Source: Hyphomonadaceae bacterium (lineage in GTDB: Bacteria > Pseudomonadota > Alphaproteobacteria > Caulobacterales > Hyphomonadaceae). Taken from it: 64,000 bases of DNA. Under the pieces are notes generated by a model that saw only the letters and a list, made by a program, of their open reading frames with translations, was not told the origin of the DNA and did not search any database. Every line of letters starts with the position of its first letter. Within the stretch, counting starts at the first letter, position 1. This document shows, piece by piece, positions 15,691 through 49,410 of the stretch. The DNA is taken from the NCBI GenBank assembly GCA_030158285.1, contig JAOATF010000017.1, positions 5,373 to 69,372 of the forward strand, written 5' to 3'. The translations under genes were made by a program, and so were the position numbers.

Positions 15691-16764
15691 CTAGTGGCGG
15701 CCCGGATCCTTGCGCCACATTTCGCGTTCGGTGCGGGCCACGTCGCTGGCGACCATTTCCGAGACGAGCTGGCGGAATGGTGTCTTGTGCGTCCAGCCAA
15801 GTTTCTTTTTCGCTTTCGACGGATCGCCGTGCAGCAGGTCCACTTCGGTCGGGCGGTAGTAGCGCGGATCGATCTTCACCAGTTCCTCGCCGGTCTTCTT
15901 GTCGTAGCCGACTTCTTCGGCGTCCTTGCCCTTCCAGTCGATCGTGCGGCCGACCTCGGCGAAGGCGAGTTCGACGAACTCACGCACCGAGTGAACCTCG
16001 CCGGTGGCGAGCACATAGTCGTCGCCTTCGGGCTGCTGCAGCATCATCCACATGCCTTCGACGAAGTCCTTCGCGTGGCCCCAGTCGCGCTTGGCGTCGA
16101 TGTTGCCGAGATAGAGTGTTTTCTGCAGGCCCTTCTCGATCGCGGCGACGGCGCGCGTGATCTTGCGGGTGACGAAGGTCTCGCCGCGGGTCGGGCCTTC
16201 ATGGTTGAACAGGATACCGTTCGAGGCGTGCATGCCATAGGCCTCGCGGTAGTTCACCGTGATCCAGAAGGCGTAGAGCTTGGCGGCGGCATAGGGGCTG
16301 CGCGGGTAGAAGGGCGTGGTTTCCTTCTGCGGAATTTCCTGCACCTTGCCGTACAGCTCAGAGGTCGACGCCTGGTAGAAGCGCGTGGTCTTCTCCATGC
16401 CGAGGATGCGGATCGCTTCGAGCAGGCGCAGGGCGCCGGTGGCGTCGGCGTTGGAGGTGTATTCCGGCGTCTCGAAGGAGACCTGCACGTGGCTCTGGGC
16501 GGCGAGGTTGTAGATCTCGTCCGGCTTCGTTTCCTTGACGAGACGGATCAGGTTGGTCGAATCCGTCATGTCGCCATAGTGCAGGAAGAATTTCGTCTTG
16601 CCCTCGTGCGGGTCGACATAGAGATCGTCCACGCGCTCGGTGTTGAAGGACGATGACCGGCGCTTCACGCCATGGACCGTGTAGCCCTTTTCGAGCAGCA
16701 GGCGGGACAGGTAGCCCCCGTCCTGTCCGGTGACACCGGTGATCAGCGCGGTCTTTTTCGTCAT
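15691..16764 (-). CDS. gmd: GDP-mannose 4,6-dehydratase
   Basis: [76 protein letters not shown]. Confidence 0.94.
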
Positions 16765-17238
16765 ACCCAGAATGCCTGTCCTTGCTTTCGCTGCCGCGCG
16801 CCGGGTTCTGCGAACCGGTGCGGGGCATTGAGGTCCCCGATGTCGTGCCGGCAGAAATGACCCGAAAACGAGCCCTTCATACCGTGATCCCCTCGTCCCA
16901 CGGGCAGGCTGAGGCCGCCAGTGGAGTGCTGCATTTCGCAGAGCCGAAGCTGGAAATCCAGCAGAAAATGGGCCGCTTTGACTATCTGTAAGGCAGCGCG
17001 ATCCGCGACCGAAATGCCGCCCAACGGGGCCGGTGGGCCGGTGCGCCCCGCAATCGTTTCCGGACGGGCAATGGAACTTAAAATGCTCCGCGGGGGTGAA
17101 TTAAGTCCGTGTTCGCTGTCGGACCCTATATCTAGACTGTTGGCCCAGGGCGGAGGTTTCGTCCCGGGCCTGGAAAGTCAGTACGCGCCTACCCGGCCCC
17201 GGCAGGGGCAAAGTGCGCGGTGGTGGAGCCTGGACTGC

Positions 17239-19704
17239 ATGAGGGTGCTGGTCAGCGGCATCGGGCGATCCGGTACAACGATGATGTACCAGCAGATCGG
17301 CCTCATGATGCGCGACGCTTTCGAGGCGCCGCGCTACCGCTATGAGCCGTATCTGTGGAACCTCAATCCCAGCAACACCAAACTTGCGAGCTATGGTCCG
17401 GAGAGCCTGTCGGCGCGGGGCATGCAGGTGCACCAGAACGCGCCGCTGTTTCTTGACGGCGCCCACCCGGTTCACGACGCTTTCCTGTGGTCGCTGTATG
17501 GCGGCGCGGCGACCTTGCCCGGCGATCCGGAAATTCCCGATGCGTGGCTCGCCAAGATCATTCGCGGCAGCGGGCGGCTGGAGTCTTACCTGCAGGCTTT
17601 CCCCGACCTCAAGGTCGTGATCTGCCTCCGCAATCCGCTGGACACGTTGAACTCCAGCCTCGGGATGTTCTCATTCACGGGCGAGGAGTTCCACGCCAGC
17701 GATCGGCCGCGCCTGCTCGCCGAGACGGCCAAGCGCCTGCCGCATCTGGACCTGCCGCCGGCGGAGACGGCATCGCACCTTGCCGTGTCGACGATCTGGT
17801 GGCGCGCCTTCACCGAATGGTCGATGCGGGTGGCGCGGAAATATCCCGAGCGCTGCTTCCTCTATCGCCACGAGCTGATGGCCAGCCACGAAGACGATGT
17901 GATCGGGAAGCTGGTGAGCTTTCTCGGCTTCTCGTCGGCGGACGTCTTCAGGATGGGGCTCAGCGAGCCGGCCGGCCGGAAGACGACGGCGACCTACCTG
18001 CTCGCGGCAGATATTGGCGAGCTTTATCCGCACCTGCGGTACTATTTCGAGGATTGCCTGTCCCAGCACATGCCGGCGCAGGAGCTGCAGCAACTCGAAG
18101 ACAGGCTGTTGAAGCGCTATGCGGGCGGACGGTTCAGTCCGCAGCTGGCGGGCGACCGGCTTGGCCGGCGGTCAACCTTGCGTCTGCGCGAGGATATTCT
18201 CGGCGGCCACGATGTCGCCCTGAAGCATGTCGAACCGAAGCTGGAGGACGACAAGCGGGTTCCGCTGCGTGCGCGTATCGAGGCGCATGTTGCGGCAAGC
18301 GGTGCTGACGTTGCGGCTCTCAAGATGTATGCGCGGCCGCCGCTGGTTGGAACGACACGCAAGACGTTCGGCTGCTGCATCACCAGCTACAACAACCGGT
18401 ACACCATCCGCGACGCCATCTATTCCGCGCTGGACCAGACCCGGCCGTTTGATCGCATCGTGGTGGTCGACGATGCCTCGCGTGACGGGACGCCTGTGAT
18501 CCTCAAGGATCTCGAAGGGCGCTATTCGTCGCTGTCGATCATCTACCGCACGCACAATGGCGGGGTATCCACCGCGCGGCACCAGGGCATCAGGGCGCTG
18601 GGCACGGACTACATCACCCATCTCGATGGTGACGATTGCTTCTGGCCGACCAAGAACCGCGATGAGGCGGAAGTCGTCCTGGACGATCCGGACGCGGTCG
18701 CGTTCTCGCGCTATCTCATGGACGAAGGACCGGATTCGCTGCAGGTGCTGGACCCTTCCATCTATGTTGGCGAGTCGGCAGGCCTGTTCAGAAGGCTGCT
18801 TGCGCGTACGCCGGCCATCCCGCGCGACATGACGATGCCGGCGAAGGCCTATCGGGCGACCGGCGGATACAATGCGCGCCTTGGTCTTTACGAAGACTGG
18901 GATTTCAAGCTTCGCCTCACCCAGGTGTCTGGCGCCTGGAAGGTTTCGGACGCGCACGCAGGCACGGTCTACAATCGCCGCCGCATCGGCCTTTCGAGTG
19001 CGGACGCCGCCTCGCACAGGCGCGCGATCACACACATTTTCCTGGAAGCGGCGCTCCGCATGCCGGGGCAGGAAGGTCTTGCAGACCTCTATGCGCAGGC
19101 CACGCGTGGTTTCGACGATGCCATGACCACGGCGATGTACAGCATCCTGCTGGCTTGCGATGCGGGCGCGGCGTCTCTGGGCGATCTCAAGCCGCTGCTC
19201 AGCAGGCAGGGCGTGGCCAAGGCCCATGAAGACTTCGGCCTTTCCGTGAAGGCCATGGACCGCAGCCGGCGCGGCTCGAACAAGACGATCGCGTGGATGC
19301 CGGTTGAAGGGTTCGGAAACAACCAGGCGCCCTATCCGCCGATCCGCCGATCGGAATTCTACTGGCAGCTTGAACCCAGCGCCCGTCTTGCGCTCAGGCT
19401 TTTTGAGCCCGTGCAGGGCTTGTCCATTGAGCTCTTCAGTCCCGTAAGGGACAACGAGATCACGCTCGAGCTAACCGACAAGTCCGCGGTGGTGTTTCGC
19501 GGCGACTTCAGTATCGGCAGGTCCGAACGCGCGGGCGAAACACTGCGGCCGATCATCTTCCCGATCAATGTCCCGCTGAAGTCGGGTAATTATGGGCTGA
19601 CGTTGAAGACCAAGTACTTTGTCGAGAAGGCCGCGGCCGGTCCAAGCGTTCCCGCGCGCAACCTGCACGTCATCGTCAGCGATGTCCTGACCGCGGACAG
19701 CTGA
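17239..19704 (+). CDS. Multidomain protein: N-terminal sulfotransferase domain, central GT2 domain, uncharacterised C-terminal domain
   Basis: PAPS-binding 5'-PSB-like VLVSGIGRSGTTMMY and 3'-PB-like VICLRNPLDTLNSS. GT-A motifs FGCCITSYNNRYTIRDAIYSALDQT, VVVDDASRDGT, HLDGDDCFWP. The last ~200 aa carry no motif I recognise. The ORF is open from 16921; ATG 17239 places the P-loop at the N-terminus. Confidence 0.7.
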   Translation: MRVLVSGIGRSGTTMMYQQIGLMMRDAFEAPRYRYEPYLWNLNPSNTKLASYGPESLSARGMQVHQNAPLFLDGAHPVHDAFLWSLYGGAATLPGDPEIPDAWLAKIIRGSGRLESYLQAFPDLKVVICLRNPLDTLNSSLGMFSFTGEEFHASDRPRLLAETAKRLPHLDLPPAETASHLAVSTIWWRAFTEWSMRVARKYPERCFLYRHELMASHEDDVIGKLVSFLGFSSADVFRMGLSEPAGRKTTATYLLAADIGELYPHLRYYFEDCLSQHMPAQELQQLEDRLLKRYAGGRFSPQLAGDRLGRRSTLRLREDILGGHDVALKHVEPKLEDDKRVPLRARIEAHVAASGADVAALKMYARPPLVGTTRKTFGCCITSYNNRYTIRDAIYSALDQTRPFDRIVVVDDASRDGTPVILKDLEGRYSSLSIIYRTHNGGVSTARHQGIRALGTDYITHLDGDDCFWPTKNRDEAEVVLDDPDAVAFSRYLMDEGPDSLQVLDPSIYVGESAGLFRRLLARTPAIPRDMTMPAKAYRATGGYNARLGLYEDWDFKLRLTQVSGAWKVSDAHAGTVYNRRRIGLSSADAASHRRAITHIFLEAALRMPGQEGLADLYAQATRGFDDAMTTAMYSILLACDAGAASLGDLKPLLSRQGVAKAHEDFGLSVKAMDRSRRGSNKTIAWMPVEGFGNNQAPYPPIRRSEFYWQLEPSARLALRLFEPVQGLSIELFSPVRDNEITLELTDKSAVVFRGDFSIGRSERAGETLRPIIFPINVPLKSGNYGLTLKTKYFVEKAAAGPSVPARNLHVIVSDVLTADS

Positions 19705-19753
19705 GCCTCTGCCTGGGAACTCTGCAGGTCAAAGGATCGCTTGTCAGGAACCG

Positions 19754-21178
19754 CTACGTCTGAGGCGGGGGCAATCCTGCGACAGGTCGACTGACATCCG
19801 ACAGCGGCGTGATCGCATCGTCGGCCTCCTGGTCCTGCTCCGAAGAAGCGGCGAGCCGCCCAGGGGGCTCGGGTTGCAGCTGGCCGACCGTCATCCGGAT
19901 ATCCGTCAGCGCACCTTCCAGGTCGCGCATGAACGTTCCCATTGCCATTTGCCAAGCTGCGACTGGCTGGTTGGCAATTGATGCTCCGGCGCCGTGGTTT
20001 CTGGCCACGCCAAGCATTTCAGGCGCATTGCTCTGCGTTTCTGCAATTGCCCGGAGCTCCTGCACGGCATCTGCTCGCGCTGCCTCGACTGTGTCGAGCT
20101 TGCTGGTGAGTTCCTGTATCTGACGTCTCGCGTCCTTGACCTGCCGCTCTCGCTCCTCAAGGCGGCTCTTCAGTGCGGCTGCCCTGTCATTGGCGATCTG
20201 CAACTTCGAAATGAGGGAATCGCGTTGCTCGGTGGCCGCATCCTGTTGGGAGTCGAGATTGGAACGAAGCATCGTGTTGTGCTCATCGGCAACCAGGACC
20301 CTTCCCTCAAGTTCACGTATCTGGTCGTCCTTCCTTGCCAGCAGCATCGCCATGCCGGGCGCGAGCTCAGGCATAGGCAGCTCCGCGCCGGCATTGGCCA
20401 GTGCTGCCTCGTGCCGCCGAAGATCGAGTTGTTGCCGAAGCGTCTCGATGGTGGCGAAGGTCTCATCGACGTAGGCGAACCGGTTGCCGCGTACGCCGCA
20501 GTCAGCATTGACGCCTCGCTTCAGTCGATCTCTCGCTGCTTCATAGATTTCGAATTCAAGTGGCCACTGCTTTTCGAAGCGCGATCGGTCCGCAGCCGTG
20601 AGCGAGAGCAGCTGGGGATCTCGCGTTCCGATGCGGACTGCCGGAACCTCGATCCTTGGTTTTCCAACAACGTCCGCCAGAAGATCGAGCGAGCGCTGCA
20701 TGTCGGCCGTATCGCCAACAACCGAGAAGGAATCCAGCGCCAGCTGAACATGCTCGGCGCTCGAAATGCCCAAGGCCATGCTGTGCTGGAATGGATGACC
20801 CTGTTCGAGGAATGACGTCAGCCCTCCAACCACATCCTTATCAACATCCTTGAGGTGGTAGTATGCCGACACCGCATGTTCGAACGGATCTCTGAGGATC
20901 GTAAAGAGACAATGCTCCGAGGGCGTGCGCAGGCCCTTGACGAGATCAAGCAGGGCCAGCGGATGCCCAGTCAGGCGGCATGCGAAATGGCCCGCTACGC
21001 CCAATTCCCTGTCGGCGAGATCGATCGAACCCACTTTGTCCGAAAACTCAGTGTCCCGCATCAGATCCGGGTACCACGTTTCCAACACGCGCTTGCAGCT
21101 TGTGCCCGCAGTTTTGGGAATATGGTAGTAAATCAGCAATGTTCGTTTTCTCCCCCAAGCTGTTGCGCCGACGTTCAT
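19754..21178 (-). CDS. Sulfotransferase (family-2-like) fused to a C-terminal coiled-coil region
   Basis: LLIYYHIPKTAGTSCKRVLE (5'-PSB) and TILRDPFEHAVSAYYH (3'-PB). These are followed by ~170 aa of heptad-like, Pro-poor sequence (DDQIRELEGRVLVADEHNTMLRSNLDSQQDAATEQRDSLISKLQIANDRAAALKSRLEERERQVKDARRQIQELTSKLDTVEAARADAVQELRAI). The ORF is open to 21262. Confidence 0.7.
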   Translation of the reverse strand: MNVGATAWGRKRTLLIYYHIPKTAGTSCKRVLETWYPDLMRDTEFSDKVGSIDLADRELGVAGHFACRLTGHPLALLDLVKGLRTPSEHCLFTILRDPFEHAVSAYYHLKDVDKDVVGGLTSFLEQGHPFQHSMALGISSAEHVQLALDSFSVVGDTADMQRSLDLLADVVGKPRIEVPAVRIGTRDPQLLSLTAADRSRFEKQWPLEFEIYEAARDRLKRGVNADCGVRGNRFAYVDETFATIETLRQQLDLRRHEAALANAGAELPMPELAPGMAMLLARKDDQIRELEGRVLVADEHNTMLRSNLDSQQDAATEQRDSLISKLQIANDRAAALKSRLEERERQVKDARRQIQELTSKLDTVEAARADAVQELRAIAETQSNAPEMLGVARNHGAGASIANQPVAAWQMAMGTFMRDLEGALTDIRMTVGQLQPEPPGRLAASSEQDQEADDAITPLSDVSRPVAGLPPPQT

Positions 21179-21398
21179 CGTCACGCGCTGCAAACGGCTC
21201 CCCGGTGCAGGAAACCTGCTTCCTGGACCAGCGCATCGGCATGGAGGCCGAAGCACAGGCAACTCTCAGGCTCACCGTTCAAGCGAACTTCGTGCCAGAT
21301 GTGTCCGTTTGGTAGCAAGTGTTGCTGAGCAAGTCGAACACTCCAAGTCACAACGTTGCGACCGCGGTGTTTCGAGGCAACGGCAGTCTAGTCGCCAC

Positions 21399-21905
21399 CT
21401 AGGTGATCGTGATGATCGGCTGGTCTGCGCTGAATTCAGCGACAGTTTCACCGACGTTCTTCATCTCGATACGGAGCGAACGGTGCGCGAACGCGAACTT
21501 TCCACCGACACGTACGAGAGTTTTATTGCCGTCTAGCTTGAAGAAGGCCTTGAAGCTCTCTTCGGGATCTGTGCCGTCGCCATTGCGGATCAGAAGCACG
21601 CGCAAGTTGGATCGCTTGCCTTCAGCAGGTGTAATGATGATTTCGGAAATTGCAGTCTGCGCGGGCTGCACGGCGGCTAGCGGGAGAATACCGATGATCG
21701 ACTCGCCAGGTTGAAGGACGACATCTTGCGGCGGCGTGGGAAGTTGGCTCCCGCGTTTCGAGACCACGCTTGTCGGCGTGGCAGGGGAGGGGGCCCAGCC
21801 ATACCAGGCACGCGGCGGTGGAGTTTGCGCGGTTGCCGCCTGCGGGGCGCCTGCCGCGCTCGACTTCCTGGAGCCCGACTTGGCGCCCTTGCGCGAAAAC
21901 AGCAT
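21399..21905 (-). CDS. Hypothetical protein, distant member 3 of the small-protein paralogue family
   Basis: The C-terminal half (SNLRVLLIRNGDGTDPEES..LVRVGGKFAFAHRSLRIEM) resembles the (V/L)R(L/S)V(M/L)MRHC..H.FA...C.R core of the other two, but lacks both Cys and any lipobox. GGTGAG lies upstream of ATG 21905. Confidence 0.4.
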   Translation of the reverse strand: MLFSRKGAKSGSRKSSAAGAPQAATAQTPPPRAWYGWAPSPATPTSVVSKRGSQLPTPPQDVVLQPGESIIGILPLAAVQPAQTAISEIIITPAEGKRSNLRVLLIRNGDGTDPEESFKAFFKLDGNKTLVRVGGKFAFAHRSLRIEMKNVGETVAEFSADQPIITIT

Positions 21906-22406
21906 CTCACCACCCCGGTAGCAGCGCCGATCCGTGCTGCATTGGAAACCATGCCTGGCTCCAACTTTACACAAGGACTTGATGGATGTTCAACCCGAGA
22001 GCACTGCCCCGGGCTCGCGCGGCGCCTTGGGACGCGCTTCCGGGCATGAATTGCGCAAGCGACATGCAGGCAAGCAGCAGATTTGCGCCTGCCGGGGGCG
22101 GTTCACGCAGGGTGTCTCGTGCAAATGTTCCGCCCGCCGGGGCGCCCGAGCTGTTCTCCAGGCTGTCCCCCGGGGCGTCCGAAGTGGACCCGGCGCGCTC
22201 GCCGGGGTATGCCTTGCTTGAGCTGTCGCTGGCCGTTTCAACCAGAACGCGAAGCAGCGATTGCAAATTCGCATGATCACGCAGACGGGGCGCCGGCATT
22301 GGTTTTTGGCAACAGATCAGCCGCGACGCCTGACACGAGGCCCAAGCCGGAACAGTTCCTGCCGGACCTGGAGGCGCAGCCGGTTCGTCCCGCAGGCGGG
22401 ACGACT

Positions 22407-23243
22407 GTGGCGCAAGTCTCGCGCTACCCGCAGCTGTGCGCGCGGCCGGTTGTCAGCGTGGTGCTCGGCAGTTTCAATCGCGCGAGCCTGCTGAAGCCGG
22501 CGATTGAATCGGTGCGGCGCGAGCTGGCGGGCATCGATGGCGAGATACTGGTTGTCGACGGCGGATCGACGGATGGATCGATCGACTGGCTGCTCGGCCA
22601 GGACGATGTGATCACGATCGTGCAGCGCAACCGCGTCACGATCGATGGCGTTGCGATGCGCAGGCGCTCGTGGGGCGGGTTCATGAACATCGCTTTCCGG
22701 GCGGCCGCCGGACAGTTCATCCTGATGATTTCGGACGACTGTCTCCTGCTACCCGGGACGATCAGCGCGGCTGTGAAGCGGATCGAACAGGCCAATGCGG
22801 CCGGCCTCCGCGTCGGCGGTTGCGCCTTCTATTTCCGCAACTGGCCTGATGAACGGTCCTACTACGTGCAGCGGACGCTGGGCGGGAACCTTATGGTAAA
22901 CCATGGCATATACGTTCGCGAGGCGCTCGACGCCGTCGGGTATGCGGACGAAGACCAGTATGTGTTCTACAAGGCCGACACGGATCTTTCGCTGAAGATC
23001 TGGCAGGCGGGGTTCCACATCATCGATTCACCCGGGTCGATCTGTGAACACTTTGTTGATCCGGGTGAGGCGGCGCGGGTCTCCAACAACGCCGTCATGG
23101 ACTTCGACAGGAGCGTCATGCGCCAACGCTGGCCGGCGCTTGTGTCCAAGGCCTGCGTGGCGAAGATGGGGAAGATTTTCCTGGACAAGGCGCCAGGGAA
23201 CGAGGCGCTGGAAACGTGGGGACCACAGCCGGCGAAGGCCTGA
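22407..23243 (+). CDS. Glycosyltransferase family 2
   Basis: PVVSVVLGSFNRASLLKPAIESVRRE, ILVVDGGSTDGS, ILMISDDC. The ORF is open from 22083. GTG 22407 has GGCGGG 6 nt upstream and gives a normal GT-A N-terminus, but the start remains uncertain. Confidence 0.7.
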   Translation: MAQVSRYPQLCARPVVSVVLGSFNRASLLKPAIESVRRELAGIDGEILVVDGGSTDGSIDWLLGQDDVITIVQRNRVTIDGVAMRRRSWGGFMNIAFRAAAGQFILMISDDCLLLPGTISAAVKRIEQANAAGLRVGGCAFYFRNWPDERSYYVQRTLGGNLMVNHGIYVREALDAVGYADEDQYVFYKADTDLSLKIWQAGFHIIDSPGSICEHFVDPGEAARVSNNAVMDFDRSVMRQRWPALVSKACVAKMGKIFLDKAPGNEALETWGPQPAKA

Positions 23244-23270
23244 CTGCAGCGGCCCGGTACTGAAGACGAA

Positions 23271-24662
23271 ATGACTGCCATCGGCGATCGATGGGGAGTG
23301 AAGATGACAGAGCGGCCGCAACTGAGTGTCGTGGATGGCGGGAAAGAGAGCCCGACGCCGTCGACGACGCCGTCATCGCCACTGGAAGCACGTCTGGCAG
23401 CCGATCTGCGCGCCCAGCGCGAGCTCAACACAGGTCTGACACTGGACCTTGGCGCCGCCCGTGCGGCGGTCGCGCTTGCGGCGCGCCGCCAGGAAGACCT
23501 GCTTACCCAGCTGCAGCTGGAGCGCGAGGCGCGCCGGCAGATGAAGCTGCAATTCCGTGAGAGCGTCGCCGAGGCGCGAGCGCTGACTGACAGGTTGCGG
23601 CTTGCCGAGGAAGCGGGGCAGGCAATCGTGCAAGACAAGCTGCAACTGGCGGCGCGGGCCGAGGCTGCGGAAACGCTGGGCGCGGGCCTTGCCCAGAAAC
23701 TGCTCGAGGCCGAGGGGCTGCTGAGGACATCCAGCGAGACGATCGAACATCTCAAGGGGCTGATCAGGAAGCGCGACGAGCAGATGATTGCCCTGCGCGC
23801 GGAACTCGGCGAGCAGGCGGCAAAGCAGGAAGCGCTCGGCCAACAGATCGCGCTGGTGCTGGTGGAGAGCGAAAAGGCCACCACGAAAGCGCGGGCGGTT
23901 ATCGCCGCAAGCGCTGATCTGACGGCGCAGGTGCGCGCCTTCGTTCTGGAGTTGTCGGAAACGCTGAACGTGAAGGATGCCCCGGCGCTGGATGAGGCGC
24001 AGACCTCCTTCGCGCCGAGTTTCGCTGCGATCACAGCCCAGGCTGCGCACCTGTATGACGCCTGCGCCGTGGCTCAGGCCGACATCGCCGCGTTGCGCGC
24101 CGAGAAGGGCGCGATCAGCGCGCAGCTGGCAGATATGACTGCGCGATGCGCCGACATGACGACCAAGGCGGAGAACCGGTTCAACCGTCTTGCTCGCGAT
24201 GCGAAGGATCTGGCCGAGCTGCGTGACGCGCTGTCGGCGCGCCATGCGCTTGTCGGCAAGCTTGAAGCCTCGCTCAAGGAACGCGATCAAGCGCTCAAGG
24301 CTGTCGTGCAGGATGGCAAGCGCCTGCAGGAAGAGCGCGACGCCGAGACGGAACGGGCGTTGCACCTGAGCAAGAAGGTCGCGAAGAAGGATGATCTGCT
24401 CATGGCGGCGGCCGCTGAGGCGCGGCAACGCGAGGCCGGGCTGCGCCAGGACATTGCCCGGGCGAGCGCGGTTTCCGGCGAGCTGTCGAAGAAGATCGAA
24501 GCGGTTGGGGCTGAGAACGCGCGGTTGGCGCAGGCCGAGCAGGCGCTGAGCGCTGAGCTGGCCGGGCTGAACACGCTTCTGGACGAGCGGCGGAACACCA
24601 TTCGCCAGCTGCAGCAGGAACTCGCCCTGATCAGGCTGGGCCGCAAGAAGCCGAACGCGTAG
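23271..24662 (+). CDS. Coiled-coil protein with no recognisable enzyme domain
   Basis: About 430 aa are almost entirely A/L/E/R/Q/K-rich and Pro-poor (LQLEREARRQMKLQFRESVAEARALTDRLRLAEEAGQAIVQDKLQLAARAEAAE...). No TM segment. Alternative start ATG 23304 has a GGGGAG RBS. Confidence 0.6.
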   Translation: MTAIGDRWGVKMTERPQLSVVDGGKESPTPSTTPSSPLEARLAADLRAQRELNTGLTLDLGAARAAVALAARRQEDLLTQLQLEREARRQMKLQFRESVAEARALTDRLRLAEEAGQAIVQDKLQLAARAEAAETLGAGLAQKLLEAEGLLRTSSETIEHLKGLIRKRDEQMIALRAELGEQAAKQEALGQQIALVLVESEKATTKARAVIAASADLTAQVRAFVLELSETLNVKDAPALDEAQTSFAPSFAAITAQAAHLYDACAVAQADIAALRAEKGAISAQLADMTARCADMTTKAENRFNRLARDAKDLAELRDALSARHALVGKLEASLKERDQALKAVVQDGKRLQEERDAETERALHLSKKVAKKDDLLMAAAAEARQREAGLRQDIARASAVSGELSKKIEAVGAENARLAQAEQALSAELAGLNTLLDERRNTIRQLQQELALIRLGRKKPNA

Positions 24663-24676
24663 GCGGACGCTGCCTT

Positions 24677-43650: not shown

Positions 43651-46600
43651 ATGCGACGCCGGGCGCTTTTGCCGGGGTGCGCGAGCATGGTTGAGCCTCG
43701 CGCAGGACAAGAGCCAGGCGTTGCAGGCGGCAAGCCGATTGCGACCATGGGGTCGCGCGCCGGCGGCCTGTTGCGCTGGATTGTTTCACATGTCGCGCGC
43801 CGCCGCGCGGCCCAGCTGACGCTGGCTGTGCTGGTGATGTTCGTTGCAGCTGTCGTCGTTGCAGTGCTGGGGCCGTGGTCCGGAGAGCAGCGGATCATCT
43901 TTGCGACTGCCGCTGGATTCGTTTTCTTCGGCGGACTGGTTTTCTACCTCGCCTTTCGCTCCTGGGATCTTGCCACGCGGCTGTCGCACGATGCCGCCAA
44001 GGCGAGAGAAATGCTCGCGTCCTTGCAAACGGCTCTGGCTCTGCAGGATCAAAGGTCCGCAACGAGCATCGCGCAGAACGAGAAGCTGGACCATGAGCTG
44101 GGCCTGTTGTGGACCGAGCATGCCGGCGTTGTGGAAAGCTTGAGGGCGACGACGCGGCGGTCGCTGCAGACAAGCGCGCGCCTTGACAAGGCTGCGACCA
44201 CGCTGGGGCTGCTCGATACCCGGGCCAGCGGCATTGATCACGTCAGGGCCCGGGTCGCGGCGCTTGCGCACCGTCAGGCATCGCTGACGGGCGCTCAGGC
44301 AACGCTTGCAGGTCGCGTGGAAGCGGTCACGAAGAATGCGGAGCTTGCGTCCGTGGCGCTTCGCGACATCCGCGGTCAGCAATCCGGTTATGTTCAGGGT
44401 CTGGGCGCTACCAACGCCCAGCTGCTCGATGTCGCCTCCAGGTTTGAAGCCCTTGCGACGATGCTTGAGCAGTGCAGGGGGCAAGTCGCGCAACAGTCTG
44501 TCGGCCAGGCAGCGTTGACAGACGCCGTTGCCGAGCTGCGTGCGATGGCTGGAGCCCTGACAAGCAGGAACGCCAGGAGCGATGCCGCTATCGAGGCGTG
44601 GAGCGCGAAACTCACAGCTGCAACGCGAGAGCAAACCGCCCTGGGCGCAGGTGTCGCCAGGCTGCAGGTCCAGCTGGGCGACATGACGAACCTTCAAGGC
44701 GCGTCGATTTCCGGCTTGACCGAAGTTGTCTCCCGCGTTGCCTCGATCGAGGGCGCCTTTGAACAGGCGCGCGTCTCGGCCGCCGAGCAGTTTGGCGAGG
44801 TCAGTCGGCGAGCCATCTCCATCGAAACGCTGACGCTGTCGGTCCAGGACCGGCTGCTGTCCGACATCGACCGCGCTGTTTCGCTGCTCAACGCGCGAGA
44901 TGCCGCAATCGCGGACGCCTCTGCAATTCTCGATCAGCGGCTTTCGCGCGTCGAGACCGGCATTTCCATTGTCGCCGAACAAGGCGAACTCCCGCTCGTG
45001 CGCATCGGAGAACTCGAAGACCGATTGACGCAAGTGACCGTGTCCAACTTGACCGCGCTTGATGACCTCTCGGCCCATGTCACGTCGCTGAAGGAGCTGG
45101 CGCGTTCCGAGGCGGGGCGCGTCGTCGAGTTGTCGGCGGTCCTGAAAGCGCTTGGCGACTCCGTCTCGGGGTCTTTGCGGGCCTTGGGCGGACAGACAAC
45201 GTCCTTGGAGCAAGGGCTCCAGACCTTATTCCGGCAGATGGACGCGTCTGTGGCAGCATCAGGCCAATCGATGGGCGAGATGGCCGGAAAGCTGGCCACG
45301 CTGGAGCAGGCCTTTGGACATGAATCCGCGCGTGTCGGTGGACTTGTGCAGGCCGTTGTCGAGCTCCGCCAGGGCGTGGAGTCGGCCGGCGCCGACAACG
45401 TCGCCGCAGTCGGCATGATCAACGCGGACATTGCCGCGCTGCTGCAACGGGTCTCAACCTCGTCCGAGGCCCACGCCGCCCACCAGCAGGAGCTGACGCA
45501 ACGGCTGGACCGCCTGCAGGCAAGCAGCCATGCTGAGGGCGAGGCGGCGATCAGACAACTTCGTGACGAGCTGTCCGCCGTCGGGCGCCGGCATCTGGAA
45601 GCTGCGGCTGCGCACGGGGCAGGCCTTGCTGCGCTGGAGGAGCAATCCAGGGATCACATCCTGTCTCTCGAACATGTTCATCGCGCGATCGCGTTCAGCC
45701 AGGATCGCACGGAGATGATTTCGGAACAGATCGGTGAGCTGCAGGGGGCGATCGAAAGCGCCGCTGTGTCGGGAGACGAGGTGTTCGAAGGCCTTGGACA
45801 GCGCATCGACGATCTCAAGCAGCAGCTTGCAGACTCCGTGTCCACCGCCCGCGACGAGCGGGAAGGTGTGGCGGGGCAGCTGGGCGCCCTTCGCAGCCTG
45901 GTCGAGGATACGACGTCTGCGGGGAACGAGGCGGTTCAAGGGGTCAGCCGGCGGATTGACGATCTTGTTCCGAAGGTCGCCGAAAGCGTCACGCTCTCCC
46001 GGCATGTGCAGGAGAAACTGTCCGCGCAGCTGGCCGAACTCCGTGAGGGGACAGGGGCCGAGAAGCGCCGGATCGATGACCTGAAAACCGAACTCGCAAC
46101 TCTGGCCGATCGCCTTGCAGCCGCCGGCGCCACTGTGGAAACGCTTGCTGCTGCCTGGCCAGCGCAGATTGAACAGCTCAAGGCCAGCCTTCCGGATGGC
46201 GCCAAGGCGGCCAAGGCTGCGGCATTGCTGGATACGCTCGAGAAATCGGCTCGTGCGAGCGAGGCCGAAATCGACGTGGTGAAGAAGGGGCTGTCCGAGC
46301 TTTCGCGCAATTTCGGTGCGACCGCGACGTCGTCGCGGCAGGTGATCGAGCAGTTGTCCGATCAGTTCACGTCGCTGCGCGAGGCGATGACGGGAGAGTT
46401 CGGGCGCGTCGGCGGCCTGACATCGCGCCTTGCGTCACTCGAAGGCGCCTTTGAAGGTGCAAGCCGCACGTCCGACCAGGAACTCGCACGCGCCCGGGAC
46501 GGTCTCGAGGATCTGTCCAGCCGGCTTTCGGAAGCGGCTTCAAGCATCGAAGCGCGCCTGTCGGAGCTGACATCAAAGGTATTTGCTGCGGCCGACCTCG

Positions 46601-47439
46601 CCGAGGAAACGGATCGCCGGCAAGTGCTCGATGGCGCGAACTGGTACGAGCCGAACAACCGGAAACTGCGGCACGATCACGTCGAGCGCATCGAGGCTGA
46701 ATGGACGCGCAAGCTGTCGCTGGACATCTCGCGTTCGACCATCGGCTACATGACCACGCACATTGCCACGCTCGAACGCGAGCTGGACGGCAGGCTGCGG
46801 GCCTCGATCGAGGACACGCTGTTGCGGACGCTGGTCGCCAGATCGGTCAAGGGGGCCAGGCTCCGCGTGCTTGAACTGGGCGCTTCCTTTGGCGTTGAAA
46901 CCGCGGTGATGCATGACCAGCTGAAGGATCACTTCGCCGACGTCGGCTTCACCATCCTCGATCCGCTCGATGCCGTGGCGCACGATGTACGCTCGGACCG
47001 CCAGACCGGGCTGCCGGTAAGCGAGCGCATCGTCCGCCGCAACCTTGCGCGCGTCGGGCTGCAGGACAAGCAGGCGACCCTGATCAAGCAGTCGGCCACC
47101 GATCTTGAAGCGGTCGAACAGGCATCCGCCGGCGCCTACGATGTGCTCATCATCGATGCGGATCATTCCTATGCCGGCGTGAAGGCCTGCTTCGAGAACT
47201 ACGGCCGCATGGTCCGGCTTGGCGGCTATATCATCTTCGCCGAGTACGGGTCGCCGGAATGGCCGGATGTCCAGGCTTTCGTTGATGCCGAAGTCGGGAC
47301 GGCCAGCCATGTGTCGCCGGTCGGGACCAGCTGGCGCACGGCCGTCTATCGCGTCGTGAAGGTCGAGAAGGCGCCGCCGGCGCGTGCTGCCGCGCCGGCC
47401 GCCGCAAAGCCGGCCGCGGCGCGACGCCGCAAGAAGTAG
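43651..47439 (+). CDS. Giant membrane-anchored coiled-coil protein with a C-terminal class I SAM-methyltransferase domain
   Basis: Basic N-terminus followed by two hydrophobic helices (LTLAVLVMFVAAVVVAVLGPW; IIFATAAGFVFFGGLVFYLAF). Then ~880 aa of Pro-poor A/L/E/R/Q/S-rich sequence with recurring motifs (RIDDL x3, RVGGL x2, IEGAFE/LEGAFE). The last ~230 aa carry VLELGASFGVE, VLIIDADHSYAGV, GGYIIFAEY. K/R/A/P tail. Possible starts at 43651, 43687 and 43747. Confidence 0.75.
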   Translation: MRRRALLPGCASMVEPRAGQEPGVAGGKPIATMGSRAGGLLRWIVSHVARRRAAQLTLAVLVMFVAAVVVAVLGPWSGEQRIIFATAAGFVFFGGLVFYLAFRSWDLATRLSHDAAKAREMLASLQTALALQDQRSATSIAQNEKLDHELGLLWTEHAGVVESLRATTRRSLQTSARLDKAATTLGLLDTRASGIDHVRARVAALAHRQASLTGAQATLAGRVEAVTKNAELASVALRDIRGQQSGYVQGLGATNAQLLDVASRFEALATMLEQCRGQVAQQSVGQAALTDAVAELRAMAGALTSRNARSDAAIEAWSAKLTAATREQTALGAGVARLQVQLGDMTNLQGASISGLTEVVSRVASIEGAFEQARVSAAEQFGEVSRRAISIETLTLSVQDRLLSDIDRAVSLLNARDAAIADASAILDQRLSRVETGISIVAEQGELPLVRIGELEDRLTQVTVSNLTALDDLSAHVTSLKELARSEAGRVVELSAVLKALGDSVSGSLRALGGQTTSLEQGLQTLFRQMDASVAASGQSMGEMAGKLATLEQAFGHESARVGGLVQAVVELRQGVESAGADNVAAVGMINADIAALLQRVSTSSEAHAAHQQELTQRLDRLQASSHAEGEAAIRQLRDELSAVGRRHLEAAAAHGAGLAALEEQSRDHILSLEHVHRAIAFSQDRTEMISEQIGELQGAIESAAVSGDEVFEGLGQRIDDLKQQLADSVSTARDEREGVAGQLGALRSLVEDTTSAGNEAVQGVSRRIDDLVPKVAESVTLSRHVQEKLSAQLAELREGTGAEKRRIDDLKTELATLADRLAAAGATVETLAAAWPAQIEQLKASLPDGAKAAKAAALLDTLEKSARASEAEIDVVKKGLSELSRNFGATATSSRQVIEQLSDQFTSLREAMTGEFGRVGGLTSRLASLEGAFEGASRTSDQELARARDGLEDLSSRLSEAASSIEARLSELTSKVFAAADLAEETDRRQVLDGANWYEPNNRKLRHDHVERIEAEWTRKLSLDISRSTIGYMTTHIATLERELDGRLRASIEDTLLRTLVARSVKGARLRVLELGASFGVETAVMHDQLKDHFADVGFTILDPLDAVAHDVRSDRQTGLPVSERIVRRNLARVGLQDKQATLIKQSATDLEAVEQASAGAYDVLIIDADHSYAGVKACFENYGRMVRLGGYIIFAEYGSPEWPDVQAFVDAEVGTASHVSPVGTSWRTAVYRVVKVEKAPPARAAAPAAAKPAAARRRKK

Positions 47440-47599: not shown

Positions 47600-48553
47600 T
47601 TGGACGGGCAGGCTATCGTGAAGTATGACTGCCCATCGTCAGCTGACGCGCCGCAGCCTGCCGCTACAGAGAGACCGCCTTTGACGAGTCAGAGTACCCA
47701 GAATGGCCTCCGGGTTGTTTCGACTGCGGCCCGGGCGGCGGCGGATATCGCCAAAAATCCATCTGAACCCATGCCCGCGGGCCATGCGCTGGTCGGGCGG
47801 CGGGCGCCGCTGGCGATCCAGGTCAAGGACTGCGTTCTCAAATATCCCATCGGCGCCCATGCGCGCGGTAGTCTCAAATCGGCTGTGATGGGCCTGTTCG
47901 GCCATCGCGAGCGTACGCCGACCGCGCAATACGTCGATGCGCTCCGGGGCATCAATCTCCAGATCCAGCAGGGTGAGCGCGTTGCGCTGATCGGCCATAA
48001 CGGTTCGGGCAAGTCGACGCTGCTGCGCGCGATGGCGGGCGTCTATCCGCTTGCCTCCGGCGATATCCACGTGTCCGGACGGATCGGTACGCTGCTGGAG
48101 CTTGGCGTCGGCTTCGAGGACGAGGCCACCGGGCGCGAGAATATCTACTATCGCGGAATGGCGATGGGCTATTCGCGCAAGCTTCTGGCGAAGCACGAGC
48201 GGGAGATCGTGGAGTTCTGCGGTCTCGGCGATTTCATCGACCTGCCGGTGCGCACCTATTCCGCCGGCATGTATGTTCGGCTCGCCTTTGCGATCTCGAC
48301 CCAGTTCTCGCCCGAAGTGCTTCTGGTCGATGAGGTCTTCGGGGCGGGCGACGCCGTCTTCGCCGAGCGCGCGGTGCAGCGCATGATGCGCATCGTGAAC
48401 GACGCCGGCATTTTCGTTCTCGCCACGCACGACGTGAATCTGGTCAGCCGCGTGTGCAGCCGGGCTGTCTGGCTGTCCTCGGGCCACATCCTGGCCGATG
48501 GGCCCGTCGAGACCGTGATTCCGGAATTCACTGCGCGAATGTCTGGACGCTGA
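47600..48553 (+). CDS. wzt: Polysaccharide-export ABC transporter ATP-binding protein (Wzt/KpsT/TagH-type), no C-terminal carbohydrate-binding domain
   Basis: Walker A GHNGSGKSTLL, signature YSAGMYVRLAFA, Walker B VLLVDEVFGAGD. The protein ends ~20 aa after the H-loop region. Start uncertain (TTG 47600 or ATG 47771). Confidence 0.85.
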   Translation: MDGQAIVKYDCPSSADAPQPAATERPPLTSQSTQNGLRVVSTAARAAADIAKNPSEPMPAGHALVGRRAPLAIQVKDCVLKYPIGAHARGSLKSAVMGLFGHRERTPTAQYVDALRGINLQIQQGERVALIGHNGSGKSTLLRAMAGVYPLASGDIHVSGRIGTLLELGVGFEDEATGRENIYYRGMAMGYSRKLLAKHEREIVEFCGLGDFIDLPVRTYSAGMYVRLAFAISTQFSPEVLLVDEVFGAGDAVFAERAVQRMMRIVNDAGIFVLATHDVNLVSRVCSRAVWLSSGHILADGPVETVIPEFTARMSGR

Positions 48554-48582
48554 GACGACCCGTAGCCTATGAGGCGGACAAG

Positions 48583-49410
48583 ATGTCCTACGTGAATGTC
48601 CAGGATCGCAGGCTGCCGTTCGCGCTTCGATACGCTGCGGACTTCCTGTCCTATCGTCATCTCTGCTGGAACCTCGTGGGGTCGGCCCTCCGGGCGCGCT
48701 TTCGCCGGACGCAGCTTGGCATTCTCTGGGCAACGCTTCAGCCGCTCGCCTTTTCCCTGATGATCGCCACCGTCTGGGCCGGGCTGCGCAACAAGGAATC
48801 CGTGTGGGAGTTTGCCGCTTACGTCTTCACGGGCACGGTGGCCTTCGAACTCTTCAGCACGTCGGTCCAGAACGGGCAGGACGCCCTGATGTCCGCGTCA
48901 GGCTTCATTCGCCAGGCGCGCATCCCTTTCCTCATCTTCCAGCTGAGGGTGGTGCTGACATCGCTCGTGATGTTCATGTGCGCGCTGGTTGGCGTCCTGC
49001 TGGTGACGGCAATCGTCACCCATGGCGCAAACCTTGGGCCGGCGCTCATGCTGGTCCCGGTCTTCATGGGGATAGCAGCGCTGTTCATGCTGCCCATCGT
49101 CATCATCATGTCGATCGTCGGCGCGCTCTATCGCGACGTGAAATACATCTCCATGCTCGGGGAGCGCGCCCTGTTCCTGGTGTCGCCGGTCATGCTTCCG
49201 CGCGACGTCCTCGAGCAACCCCATCTGCAGATCCTCGAAGTCCTGAACCCGCTCGTCCCGTTTCTGGATCTGTTTCGCGATCCCGTCCTCTACGGCAACT
49301 TCTGGGAAGCGCGGGACGTGATTGCGATGTTCGTCTGGATCGCGGCGCTCTGGGCTCTGGCGATCTTTGCGTCCATGTCGGTAGGCCGCAAGATCGTGTT
49401 CGCCATCTGA
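48583..49410 (+). CDS. wzm: ABC-2-type polysaccharide-export permease
   Basis: Six hydrophobic helices; N-terminal YRHLCWNLVGSALRARFRRTQLGILWATLQPL is typical of ABC2_membrane permeases. GAGGCGG RBS upstream of ATG 48583. Confidence 0.85.
   Translation: MSYVNVQDRRLPFALRYAADFLSYRHLCWNLVGSALRARFRRTQLGILWATLQPLAFSLMIATVWAGLRNKESVWEFAAYVFTGTVAFELFSTSVQNGQDALMSASGFIRQARIPFLIFQLRVVLTSLVMFMCALVGVLLVTAIVTHGANLGPALMLVPVFMGIAALFMLPIVIIMSIVGALYRDVKYISMLGERALFLVSPVMLPRDVLEQPHLQILEVLNPLVPFLDLFRDPVLYGNFWEARDVIAMFVWIAALWALAIFASMSVGRKIVFAI

What the first reader, a model, noticed from the sequence alone, without database searches (positions are those of the whole stretch)
19754..21178. Sulfotransferase fused to a C-terminal coiled coil, with WbdD-like domain order: possible sulfate-based chain terminator
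Seen in sequence. The N-terminal ~250 aa carry both PAPS-binding motifs (YYHIPKTAGTS and LRDPFEHAVSAYYH). About 170 aa of heptad-like sequence and an acidic tail follow. The domain order, enzyme first and coil second, is the same as in WbdD.

Inference. The locus may encode a second terminator/ruler that caps chains with sulfate, or one that docks onto the other coiled-coil proteins. Known O-PS terminators are methyl, phospho-methyl or beta-Kdo. As far as I know, a sulfate cap has not been described.
Basis: partly seen in the sequence, partly recalled or inferred. Interest (0 to 1): 0.6.

Follow-up and report, generated by a model that had tools for sequence, protein, structure and literature searches.

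The report
Sulfotransferase on a coiled-coil stalk
A rare bacterial gene in a lipopolysaccharide O-antigen locus fuses a genuine sugar-sulfating enzyme to a long coiled-coil stalk, the layout of enzymes that cap and measure O-antigen chains, so it may be a first sulfate-based chain terminator, but this is not shown.

Summary
ORF 19754-21178(-), which more likely starts at TTG 21139, encodes a PAPS-type carbohydrate sulfotransferase domain (aa 14-222). Both PAPS motifs are invariant. The family profile matches heparan-sulfate 6-O-sulfotransferase at E=4.6e-11, and the AlphaFold model's best PDB matches are all sulfotransferases. After the enzyme domain come a 110-residue uninterrupted helix with heptad periodicity (aa 274-383), a conserved C-terminal helix (404-433) and a disordered acidic tail.

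The gene lies in a Wzm/Wzt (ABC-transporter) O-polysaccharide locus. It belongs to a conserved cassette:
- a sulfotransferase-GT2 fusion;
- a small 168-aa partner, directly upstream in 5 of 5 close loci;
- a GT2;
- an enzyme-less coiled-coil protein.

The close family is very rare. Its relatives carry either coils of varied length or, in place of the coil, a Wzt-type carbohydrate-binding module (hhalign 95.8%).

These features fit a sulfate-adding chain terminator with a ruler (about 0.4). Against that reading, the locus Wzt has no CBM, a second coil-methyltransferase candidate exists, and sulfation could be in-chain. Nothing here shows where the sulfate goes. I rate it a new variant of a known kind, interest 0.6.

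The parts
19754..21178 (-). ST2-CC gene: sulfotransferase, coiled coil, conserved C-terminal helix and acidic tail (474 aa from ATG 21178; 461 aa from the likelier TTG 21139)
20513..21139 (-). Sulfotransferase domain, aa 14-222
   Evidence: Pfam Sulfotransfer_2 scores 20.5 bits against a cut-off of 22, and 27 of 44 relatives hit PF03567. The family profile matches the HS6ST3 structure 5t03 at E=4.6e-11 over the whole domain. In the AF2 model the domain has pLDDT above 90, and the Foldseek top hits are HS2ST, SULT7A1, 3rnl and HS6ST.
21098..21130 (-). 5'-phosphosulfate-binding loop YYHIPKTAGTS (aa 17-27; K22 and G25 invariant)
   Evidence: aligned to HIQKTGGT of HS6ST3
20855..20896 (-). 3'-phosphate-binding motif LRDPFEHAVSAYYH (aa 95-108; R96, P98 and S104 invariant)
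   Evidence: aligned to RDPVSRYLSEW of HS6ST3 and RDPIERLVSYYY of HS2ST
20987..20989 (-). His64 (GHF motif), nearly invariant; candidate catalytic base (inference)
20030..20359 (-). Main coiled coil, aa 274-383. As one continuous helix it would be about 16 nm long.
   Evidence: AF2 gives a single helix in both runs. The heptad scan marks 280-385 above the shuffles. There are weak hits to coiled-coil families and to SMC. The length is kept without gaps in orthologues that are only 34-38% identical.
19880..19969 (-). Conserved C-terminal helix, aa 404-433 (WQxAMxxFMRxLxGALSDIRxTVxQL); candidate docking element
   Evidence: It is 50-73% identical in orthologues, against 34-38% for the coil. AF2 predicts a helix. 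It is moderately amphipathic and not basic.
19757..19879 (-). Disordered acidic, Pro-rich tail, aa 434-474
   Evidence: pLDDT below 50; poorly conserved
21399..21905 (-). Conserved small partner gene (168 aa): basic, Pro-rich N-terminus followed by a domain of about 100 aa that looks beta-rich by eye. It lies directly upstream on the same strand.
   Evidence: It sits directly upstream of the ST-CC gene in the window, L001, L011, L043 and L044, at 39-76% identity. It has no Pfam, NCBIfam or PDB match.
16921..19704 (+). Neighbouring fusion of Sulfotransfer_3, GT2 and an unassigned C-terminal domain, convergent with ST2-CC
   Evidence: Pfam; syntenic in L001 and L043 at 78-87% identity
22083..23243 (+). 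GT2 glycosyltransferase of the cassette
23271..24662 (+). Enzyme-less coiled-coil protein (463 aa) of the cassette
   Evidence: The heptad scan marks 138-197 and 263-460. The only hits are coil-type and SMC-type. The L001 orthologue is 69% identical.
43651..47439 (+). Second enzyme-coil fusion of the locus: hydrophobic N-terminal stretches that look like TM segments (by eye), then a heptad-rich helical region spanning about 880 aa, then a C-terminal Methyltransf_24 domain
47600..49410 (+). Wzt (short, no CBM) and Wzm exporter genes of the locus
   Evidence: ABC_tran and ABC2_membrane. NCBIfam galactan-export Wzt matches positions 19-242 of 244. The contig has no Wzt_C hit.

Best explanation
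The gene encodes a cytoplasmic, PAPS-dependent carbohydrate O-sulfotransferase held on a coiled-coil stalk.

Proposed mechanism:
- The coil oligomerises.
- The conserved C-terminal helix docks the protein to the membrane-associated polymerase complex of this O-polysaccharide locus (the two GT2 enzymes and the enzyme-less coiled-coil protein). The small upstream partner may help.
- The catalytic head is thereby held at a fixed distance from the membrane.
- When the growing undecaprenyl-linked chain reaches the head, it sulfates the non-reducing terminal sugar. This blocks the acceptor hydroxyl, ends polymerisation and sets a preferred chain length.
- The capped chain is then exported by the CBM-less Wzm/Wzt transporter.

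Shown: the sulfotransferase fold and PAPS motifs, the long coil, the conserved cassette, the exporter type, PAPS supply in the genome, and the alternative fusion partners in relatives.

Inferred: the acceptor, the terminal position of the sulfate, the docking and the ruler role.
For: Enzyme identity:
- Family profile against solved structures: HS6ST3 at E=4.6e-11 over the full domain, HS2ST at 7.6e-5.
- AF2 model with mean pLDDT 84; its top PDB fold matches are all sulfotransferases.
- Invariant K22, G25, R96, P98 and S104.
- 27 of 44 relatives hit Sulfotransfer_2.
- An APS kinase in a 662-aa open frame (CysN/CysC-like by my reading) is present in the genome.

Coil:
- One helix at 274-383, with heptad signal above the shuffles.
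- Its length is kept without gaps in orthologues only 34-38% identical. The total coil varies from about 28 to 142 aa in more distant relatives.

Pathway:
- The locus has Wzm/Wzt, a WaaL-like ligase and many GTs.

Sister architecture:
- The same sulfotransferase domain is fused to a Wzt_C-type CBM. hhalign gives 95.8% probability, E=7e-9, 125 columns, against 0.1% for the reversed control.
- One example is in a genome of the same genus (L003).
- In Wzt the CBM recognises the terminal moiety of the chain (PMC11231755).

Neighbour:
- The adjacent sulfotransferase is fused directly to a GT2. That leaves a distinct, spatially separated role for the coil-borne enzyme.
Against: - The locus Wzt has no CBM. 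[quoted passage not shown]
- The same locus has another plausible terminator: the TM, coil and methyltransferase protein at 43651-47439.
- The adjacent sulfotransferase-GT2 fusion shows that sulfation may simply be an in-chain feature.
- No membrane anchor or basic amphipathic helix was found. The C-terminal helix is acidic to neutral.
- In relatives the gene family sits next to an FkbM/RfbT-like methyltransferase inside or beside a NeuB/CMP-transferase/transketolase sugar pathway. The target could therefore be that acidic sugar and not the chain end as such.
- No chemistry, expression or interaction data exist.
Confidence: 0.4

Rival explanations
1. In-chain modifier held in the complex. The enzyme sulfates internal residues of the polymer (or a second position in each repeat). 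The coil serves only to oligomerise it and hold it in the coiled-coil scaffold with the products of 23271-24662 and 43651-47439. It has no role in chain length.
For: - There are two sulfotransferase domains in adjacent genes and three coiled-coil proteins in one locus.
- The Wzt has no CBM, as in uncapped systems such as K. pneumoniae O2a.
- In-chain sulfated bacterial polysaccharides are well known, for example Cobetia and Vibrio capsules (papers listed).
Against: - The in-chain job already has a natural candidate in the sulfotransferase fused directly to a GT2.
- No characterised in-chain modifier of ABC-transporter O-antigens that I know of (my own knowledge) carries a long coil.
- The coil length is conserved while its sequence drifts, and relatives swap the coil for a terminal-recognition-type CBM.
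Confidence: 0.3
2. Terminal decoration without length control. Sulfate is added to the last residue, or to a terminal sialic- or Kdo-like acidic sugar made by the neighbouring NeuB/CMP-transferase/transketolase genes, possibly together with O-methylation. It only diversifies the antigen, like the terminal pyruvate of K. pneumoniae O1.
For: [quoted passage not shown]
- Relatives of the gene lie next to an FkbM/RfbT-like methyltransferase within or beside the NeuB/CMP-transferase/transketolase cluster.
- Two KpsC/KpsS-like (Capsule_synth) putative transferases for an activated acid sugar are in the window.
Against: A decoration enzyme would not need a 110-residue coil whose length is conserved. 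In the window and in L001 the gene is embedded in the gmd/rmd-GT2 cassette and not in the NeuB cluster.
Confidence: 0.15
3. The acceptor is not the O-polysaccharide. The enzyme sulfates something else (a lipid, a core or lipid A sugar, a nucleotide sugar or a protein), or it has lost activity and survives as a structural coil protein.
For: - The Pfam score is just under the curated cut-off (20.5 against 22).
- Distant stand-alone relatives in Alphaproteobacteria lie in unrelated contexts.
- The usual Arg after RDP is replaced by His (RDPFEH).
Against: - All PAPS-binding residues are invariant across the family.
- The model is confident and sulfotransferase-like.
- The gene is syntenic with glycosyltransferases in every close locus.
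- Sister proteins carry a carbohydrate-binding module.
Confidence: 0.1

Closest known systems
WbdD (E. coli O9a / K. pneumoniae O3): kinase-methyltransferase chain terminator with a coiled-coil ruler
   Same: Soluble catalytic domain first, then a long coiled coil, then a C-terminal region. It is encoded in a Wzm/Wzt O-polysaccharide locus. A non-sugar group blocks the chain end (PMC3482155, listed; PMC11231755).
   Different: - There is no sequence or fold relationship: this enzyme is a sulfotransferase, not a kinase or methyltransferase.
- The donor is PAPS, not ATP or SAM.
- No basic membrane-binding C-terminus was recognised.
- The partner Wzt has no CBM.
- Terminal action is unproven here.
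WbbB (K. pneumoniae O12), ORF7 of O4 and ORF6 of O7: other coil-bearing terminators (beta-Kdo, alpha-Kdo/GT137, methyl-phosphate)
   Same: They show that very different chemistries can sit on the same coiled-coil ruler design. ORF6 of O7 even carries a CBM-like domain next to its terminator modules, as the sister proteins of this family do.
   Different: In WbbB and O7 ORF6 the polymerase GT modules are in the same polypeptide; here the GTs are separate genes. All of these systems have a CBM-bearing Wzt.
Heparan-sulfate 6-O- and 2-O-sulfotransferases (HS6ST3 5t03; HS2ST 3f5f, 4ndz), Pfam Sulfotransfer_2
   Same: These are the closest solved structures by sequence profile and by fold. They share the PKxGGT and RDPxxRxxS PAPS motifs and act on polysaccharide acceptors.
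   Different: They are eukaryotic Golgi enzymes that act in-chain and have no coiled-coil stalk of this kind. Identity is only about 14-18%. The present domain is smaller, about 210 aa.
HNK-1 sulfotransferase acting on matriglycan (animals)
   Same: It is a sulfotransferase that 3-O-sulfates the terminal glucuronic acid of a polymer. From my own knowledge, this stops further extension by LARGE and so gives a chemical precedent for a sulfate cap. I saw only the title of Sheikh et al. 2020, in the reference list of PMC12514197.
   Different: It is eukaryotic, it has no ruler coil, and it is not linked to export. I could not read the paper itself.
K. pneumoniae O1 terminal pyruvyltransferase
   Same: It adds a non-sugar group to the chain end in a system whose Wzt lacks a CBM.
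   Different: It is not needed for chain-length control, and I know of no coiled coil in it (my own knowledge; the paper's passage does not address this).
Rhizobial LPS and capsule sulfotransferases (LpsS of Sinorhizobium meliloti, KpsS of Mesorhizobium loti); my own knowledge, not checked here
   Same: They are alphaproteobacterial PAPS-dependent sulfation of surface polysaccharides.
   Different: They are stand-alone enzymes with no coil.

Membership tests
PAPS-dependent carbohydrate sulfotransferase (Sulfotransfer_2 / HS2ST-HS6ST-like) | 5'-phosphosulfate-binding loop PKxGGT/S with a conserved Lys | tested here: met
   HIPKTAGTS at aa 19-27. K22 and G25 are invariant in 69 sequences. The loop aligns to HIQKTGGT of HS6ST3.
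PAPS-dependent carbohydrate sulfotransferase (Sulfotransfer_2 / HS2ST-HS6ST-like) | 3'-phosphate-binding motif RDPxxRxxS | tested here: met
   RDPFEHAVS at aa 96-104. R96, P98 and S104 are invariant. The second Arg is His in the window protein and its closest relatives.
PAPS-dependent carbohydrate sulfotransferase (Sulfotransfer_2 / HS2ST-HS6ST-like) | Score above the curated Pfam threshold | tested here: inconclusive
   20.5 bits against a cut-off of 22 for this protein. 27 of 44 relatives match PF03567 at E<=0.01 (best 5.5e-10). The family profile matches HS6ST3 at E=4.6e-11.
PAPS-dependent carbohydrate sulfotransferase (Sulfotransfer_2 / HS2ST-HS6ST-like) | Sulfotransferase fold | tested here: met
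   In the AF2 model the domain has pLDDT above 90. The six Foldseek hits with E<=0.001 are all sulfotransferases, with TM-score about 0.47-0.51 on the 4ndz_A, 5x2b_J and 3rnl chains (0.22 on the MBP-fusion chains).
PAPS-dependent carbohydrate sulfotransferase (Sulfotransfer_2 / HS2ST-HS6ST-like) | Catalytic base (His) positioned at the acceptor | tested here: inconclusive
   H64 (GHF) is invariant or nearly so. It does not align to a His of HS6ST3, and no model coordinates were available to inspect.
PAPS-dependent carbohydrate sulfotransferase (Sulfotransfer_2 / HS2ST-HS6ST-like) | PAPS available in the cell | tested here: met
   An APS-kinase domain (235 bits) lies in a 662-aa open frame on contig C130 of the same genome. 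The reading as CysN/CysC-like is my own inference.
PAPS-dependent carbohydrate sulfotransferase (Sulfotransfer_2 / HS2ST-HS6ST-like) | Sulfate transfer to a sugar acceptor | not testable with these tools
   Needs an enzyme assay.
Coiled-coil chain terminator / molecular ruler of ABC-transporter glycans (WbdD / WbbB type) | Terminating catalytic module and an extended coiled coil in one polypeptide | tested here: met
   Enzyme domain at 14-222 plus a 110-aa helix with heptads. That the module terminates chains is assumed, not shown.
Coiled-coil chain terminator / molecular ruler of ABC-transporter glycans (WbdD / WbbB type) | Encoded in a Wzm/Wzt-dependent polysaccharide locus | tested here: met
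   Wzt at 47600-48553, Wzm at 48454-49410, a WaaL-like gene at 49536-50762, and many GTs and sugar-nucleotide genes.
Coiled-coil chain terminator / molecular ruler of ABC-transporter glycans (WbdD / WbbB type) | Wzt carries a C-terminal CBM that recognises the cap | tested here: not met
   The window Wzt is a short NBD only. The genome's only Wzt_C domain is on another contig, C37.
Coiled-coil chain terminator / molecular ruler of ABC-transporter glycans (WbdD / WbbB type) | C-terminal region that anchors to the membrane and/or binds the polymerase | tested here: inconclusive
   A conserved helix at 404-433 exists but is not basic, and there is no TM segment. Binding was not testable.
Coiled-coil chain terminator / molecular ruler of ABC-transporter glycans (WbdD / WbbB type) | Modifies only the non-reducing terminal residue and stops elongation | not testable with these tools
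   Needs glycan chemistry or in vitro reconstitution.
Coiled-coil chain terminator / molecular ruler of ABC-transporter glycans (WbdD / WbbB type) | Coil length sets modal chain length | not testable with these tools
   Indirect evidence only. The coil length is kept without gaps at 34-38% identity among orthologues and differs among distant relatives.
Coiled-coil chain terminator / molecular ruler of ABC-transporter glycans (WbdD / WbbB type) | Homology to known terminator catalytic modules (WbdD kinase/MTase, GT99, GT137) | tested here: not met
   Pfam, NCBIfam and PDB searches give only sulfotransferase and coil hits. Any likeness is in design, not descent.

The most novel reading that the evidence does not exclude
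Sulfate is a new O-polysaccharide chain-terminating cap. It is installed by a dedicated sulfotransferase family that evolution has mounted either on a coiled-coil ruler (here) or on a Wzt-type cap-binding module (relatives). The family works with a conserved small partner protein and without a CBM on the locus's own exporter. That would be a capped and measured system that breaks the rule that a terminator is always paired with a CBM-bearing Wzt.
Probability: 0.3. Interest if true: 0.8.

Novelty: new variant of a known kind. Interest (0 to 1): 0.6.

Why it matters
The chain-end groups described in the paper I could read (PMC11231755) are few: methyl, methyl-phosphate, beta-Kdo and alpha-Kdo as length-setting caps, plus a terminal pyruvate that does not set length. 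All characterised rulers pair with a CBM-bearing exporter.

A sulfotransferase on a ruler would add a new, strongly anionic cap chemistry. It would also give a compact two-gene module (small partner plus ST-coil) that can be tested in vitro. The CBM-less exporter would let one ask whether length control by a ruler can be uncoupled from export gating.

The paired architectures (ST-coil and ST-Wzt_C) give a simple search handle for finding more such systems in metagenomes. If the enzyme instead proves to be an in-chain modifier, it would be, as far as I know, the first coil-tethered tailoring enzyme in this pathway, which is also informative.

Tried and rejected
**Structure and sequence searches that gave nothing**
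- AF2 on the shallow 8-sequence alignment gave an unusable enzyme domain (pLDDT below 50). It was repeated with 69 sequences.
- The full-length family profile against PDB sequences returned only coiled-coil noise.
- The CBM-like domain profile against PDB sequences found nothing.
- The CBM-like domain against the single Wzt of contig C37, or against the C-terminus of the ST3-GT2 protein, was not significant by hhalign. Only a profile of 18 true Wzt_C domains gave the link.
- The small partner protein shows no significant similarity to Wzt_C, to the CBM-like domain or to any PDB chain, and has no Pfam or NCBIfam hit.
- The ST3-GT2 C-terminal domain against Wzt_C gave only a 17-column local match (29% probability), which I rejected.

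**Database scans**
- The genome contigs and metagenome-contig scans yielded only 1 and 2 loci.
- Distant stand-alone relatives in 19 of 401 alphaproteobacterial genomes show no Wzt or cassette genes nearby, so they say nothing about this clade.

**Other checks**
- Promoter and terminator scans of 19500-22500 found nothing.
- I tested whether the C-terminal helix could be a WbdD-like membrane helix. It has a moderate hydrophobic moment but acidic to neutral charge, so this is not supported.

**Tools and papers not available**
- The record behind L001 could not be searched.
- Not held in the library: Mann et al. 2019 Glycobiology, Whitfield et al. 2020 JBC and Sheikh et al. 2020.
Full report
**1. 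Gene model**

The ATG at 21178 has no obvious ribosome-binding site. Thirteen codons downstream, a TTG at 21139 is preceded by GGAG at a 10-nt spacing. The gene caller's product in the public collection is 461 aa, and all homologues start 'MLVYYHIPK'. The true product is therefore probably 461 aa. Residue numbers below follow the 474-aa form. The 20-22 kb block is less GC-rich (59.2%) than the window as a whole (63.8%).

**2. The enzyme domain is a real sulfotransferase**

- Pfam gives Sulfotransfer_2 at 20.5 bits, just under the cut-off of 22, over aa 13-108.
- An exhaustive HMMER search of 1.84 billion representatives finds 210 relatives, and the shared region is aa 14-220.
- Of 44 aligned relatives, 27 match Sulfotransfer_2 and 14 match Sulfotransfer_1.
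- A profile of the domain matches the structure of heparan-sulfate 6-O-sulfotransferase over its whole length (E=4.6e-11). It also matches HS2ST (7.6e-5) and a series of cytosolic sulfotransferases.
- With a 69-sequence alignment, AlphaFold2 gives mean pLDDT 84 and above 90 over the domain. The six Foldseek PDB hits with E<=0.001 are all sulfotransferases: HS2ST 4ndz and 3f5f, SULT7A1, and the bacterial 3rnl. HS6ST follows.
- The PAPS-binding residues K22 and G25 (5'-PSB loop) and R96, P98 and S104 (3'-PB motif) are invariant. H19 and H64 are nearly so.
- The genome encodes an APS-kinase domain in a 662-aa open frame (CysN/CysC-like by my reading) on another contig. PAPS can therefore be made, although the locus itself has no such gene.

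**3. The coil**

Both AlphaFold runs predict one uninterrupted helix at aa 274-383, preceded by a helix at 235-263. After a disordered linker comes a helix at 404-433, then a disordered acidic tail.

A transparent heptad scan marks 280-385. It scores hydrophobic a/d positions and polar other positions, and allows no Pro. The score is 1.21, against 0.69 for the 99th percentile of shuffles. The scan gives short (about 30 aa) false positives elsewhere. Segments over 100 aa occur in only three products of the window: this one, 23271-24662 and 43651-47439.

The coil is therefore about 110 aa, or about 16 nm as a straight helix, not 170 aa.

Among orthologues the pattern of conservation is:

| Region | Identity |
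|---|---|
| Enzyme domain | 69-82% |
| Coil (all 110 columns align without gaps) | 34-38% (70% in the closest orthologue, P0003) |
| C-terminal helix | 50-73% |

A spacer whose length matters more than its sequence, followed by a docking element, would look like this. The C-terminal helix is moderately amphipathic but not basic, and there is no TM segment.

**4. Family and architectures**

The close family is very rare: 8 clusters in 5.8 billion proteins, 1 of 36 other genomes of the same genus, and 2 further metagenome loci.

Relatives fall into three forms:
- stand-alone domains of 220-250 aa, which are the majority;
- enzyme plus coils totalling about 28-142 aa (proteins of 359-540 aa);
- enzyme plus a C-terminal beta domain of about 150 aa (384-420 aa), including the same-genus protein (L003).

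Three of the beta domains gave sub-threshold Wzt_C hits. A profile of ten of them, compared with an alignment of 18 bona fide Wzt_C domains from genomes of the same order, gives hhalign probability 95.8%, E=7e-9 and 125 aligned columns. The reversed control gives 0.1%.

So the same sulfotransferase is mounted either on a coiled coil or on a Wzt-type carbohydrate-binding module. In Wzt that module recognises the terminal moiety of the chain (PMC11231755). These are the two hallmarks of capped ABC-transporter glycans.

**5. Context**

The window is one large O-polysaccharide locus:
- rmlABCD, gmd and an rmd/fcl-like reductase;
- an aminosugar module;
- a NeuB/CMP-transferase/transketolase acid-sugar pathway;
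- many GTs and methyltransferases;
- Wzt/Wzm, a WaaL-like ligase and an acyltransferase.

ST2-CC is convergent with a Sulfotransfer_3-GT2 fusion (16921-19704). On its own strand it follows a small gene (21399-21905). Divergent from that pair are a GT2 (22083-23243) and an enzyme-less 463-aa coiled-coil protein (23271-24662).

The block is syntenic in L001. There the flanking gmd, rmd and transketolase are 96% identical to the window. The cassette genes are far more diverged: ST2-CC 54%, coil protein 69%, small protein 63% and ST3-GT2 78%. This pattern is typical of the antigen-specific core of an O-antigen locus.

The small protein is directly upstream of the ST-coil gene in all five close loci where that side is visible. 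It has no detectable family.

In more distant relatives the gene neighbours an FkbM/RfbT-like methyltransferase inside or beside the NeuB/CMP-transferase/transketolase genes.

The nearest named relatives of the window's RmlB are Terricaulis and other Caulobacterales, at 71-74%. The organism is therefore probably a Caulobacterales MAG. This is a weak inference.

**6. What argues against a canonical terminator**

- The locus Wzt is a short NBD of the galactan-exporter type, with no CBM. The only Wzt_C in the genome is in a separate locus on contig C37, which has no long coil protein within 20 kb.
- PMC11231755 states that in all terminated examples a CBM is attached to Wzt. It also states that the CBM-less O1/O2 exporter handles chains with or without a terminal pyruvate that plays no part in length control.
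- The locus has another enzyme-coil fusion: N-terminal TM-like segments, a heptad-rich helical region spanning about 880 aa, and a C-terminal SAM methyltransferase. This is at least as good a candidate for a methyl terminator.

**7. Verdict**

The protein is a PAPS-type glycan sulfotransferase on a coiled-coil stalk, in a conserved, fast-evolving cassette of an ABC-transporter O-antigen locus.

It is not a homologue of any known terminator, and one defining feature of the canonical system (a Wzt CBM) is absent. I therefore do not file it as a member. Its design matches that of the coil-bearing terminators, and its sister architecture carries a Wzt-type module.

My estimates are:

| Reading | Probability |
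|---|---|
| Sulfate-capping terminator with ruler | about 0.4 |
| Tethered in-chain sulfation | about 0.3 |
| Terminal decoration without length control | about 0.15 |
| Another acceptor, or inactive | about 0.1 |

No paper in the searchable library links sulfotransferases with WbdD, Wzt or rulers in bacteria. The key census (Mann et al. 2019) could not be read, so prior in-silico mention cannot be excluded.

Noticed in passing
window 43651-47439 (+): A 1262-aa protein with hydrophobic N-terminal stretches that look like TM segments (by eye), a heptad-rich helical region spanning about 880 aa and a C-terminal Methyltransf_24 domain. The membrane anchor comes first and the enzyme last, the reverse of WbdD. 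It is a candidate methyl terminator on a very long stalk, directly upstream of wzt and wzm.
   Followed up: partly
window 21399-21905 (-); also L001 9253-9756, L011 5353-5817, L043 344-847, L044 3-428: A small protein of about 150-168 aa (starts MLFSRKGAKSG; WYGWAPSPATP; C-terminal part beta-rich by eye) always lies directly upstream of the ST-coil gene. It has no known family. Paralogues with lipoprotein-like signals lie at 8978-9628 and 26703-27257.
   Followed up: partly
own genome contig C37 (L010 8119-10238 and flanks): There is a second Wzm/Wzt system whose Wzt carries a true Wzt_C CBM (38 bits). No long coiled-coil protein lies within the 20 kb fetched. The window locus has the coil-enzyme fusions but a CBM-less Wzt. 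The two hallmarks are thus split between two loci.
   Followed up: partly
L003 94-1215 (same-genus genome G011); P0159 contig; P0013, P0016-P0025: A sulfotransferase fused to a Wzt_C-type carbohydrate-binding module. In L003 and on the P0159 contig it lies next to an FkbM/RfbT-like methyltransferase, and on the P0159 contig it is inserted between the SDR and HAD genes of a NeuB-type sugar cluster. According to PMC11231755, CBMs in terminator-type enzymes have so far been noted only in K. pneumoniae O7 ORF6.
   Followed up: partly
L001 versus window 14687-26635: The flanking genes (gmd, rmd, transketolase) are 96% identical between the two organisms. The cassette between them is only 54-78% identical, and the 20-22 kb block has lower GC (59% against 64%). 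This looks like a diversifying, antigen-specific core.
   Followed up: partly
window 31013-32797 (-) and 39382-41223 (+): Two paralogous proteins of about 600 aa with weak Capsule_synth (KpsC/KpsS-like) matches, beside the NeuB/CMP-transferase genes. They are possible transferases for the activated acid sugar, which could itself be a terminal residue.
   Followed up: no
L010 14078-19339 (-) on contig C37: A 1753-aa protein with 41 ALTTAQ repeats (683 bits), next to a GT41/TPR glycosyltransferase and the CBM-bearing exporter. It may be a glycosylated surface protein.
   Followed up: no
window 3-3560 (+): A large RTX (HemolysinCabind) repeat protein borders the locus. In L001 the corresponding neighbour also carries an animal-haem-peroxidase domain.
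   Followed up: no
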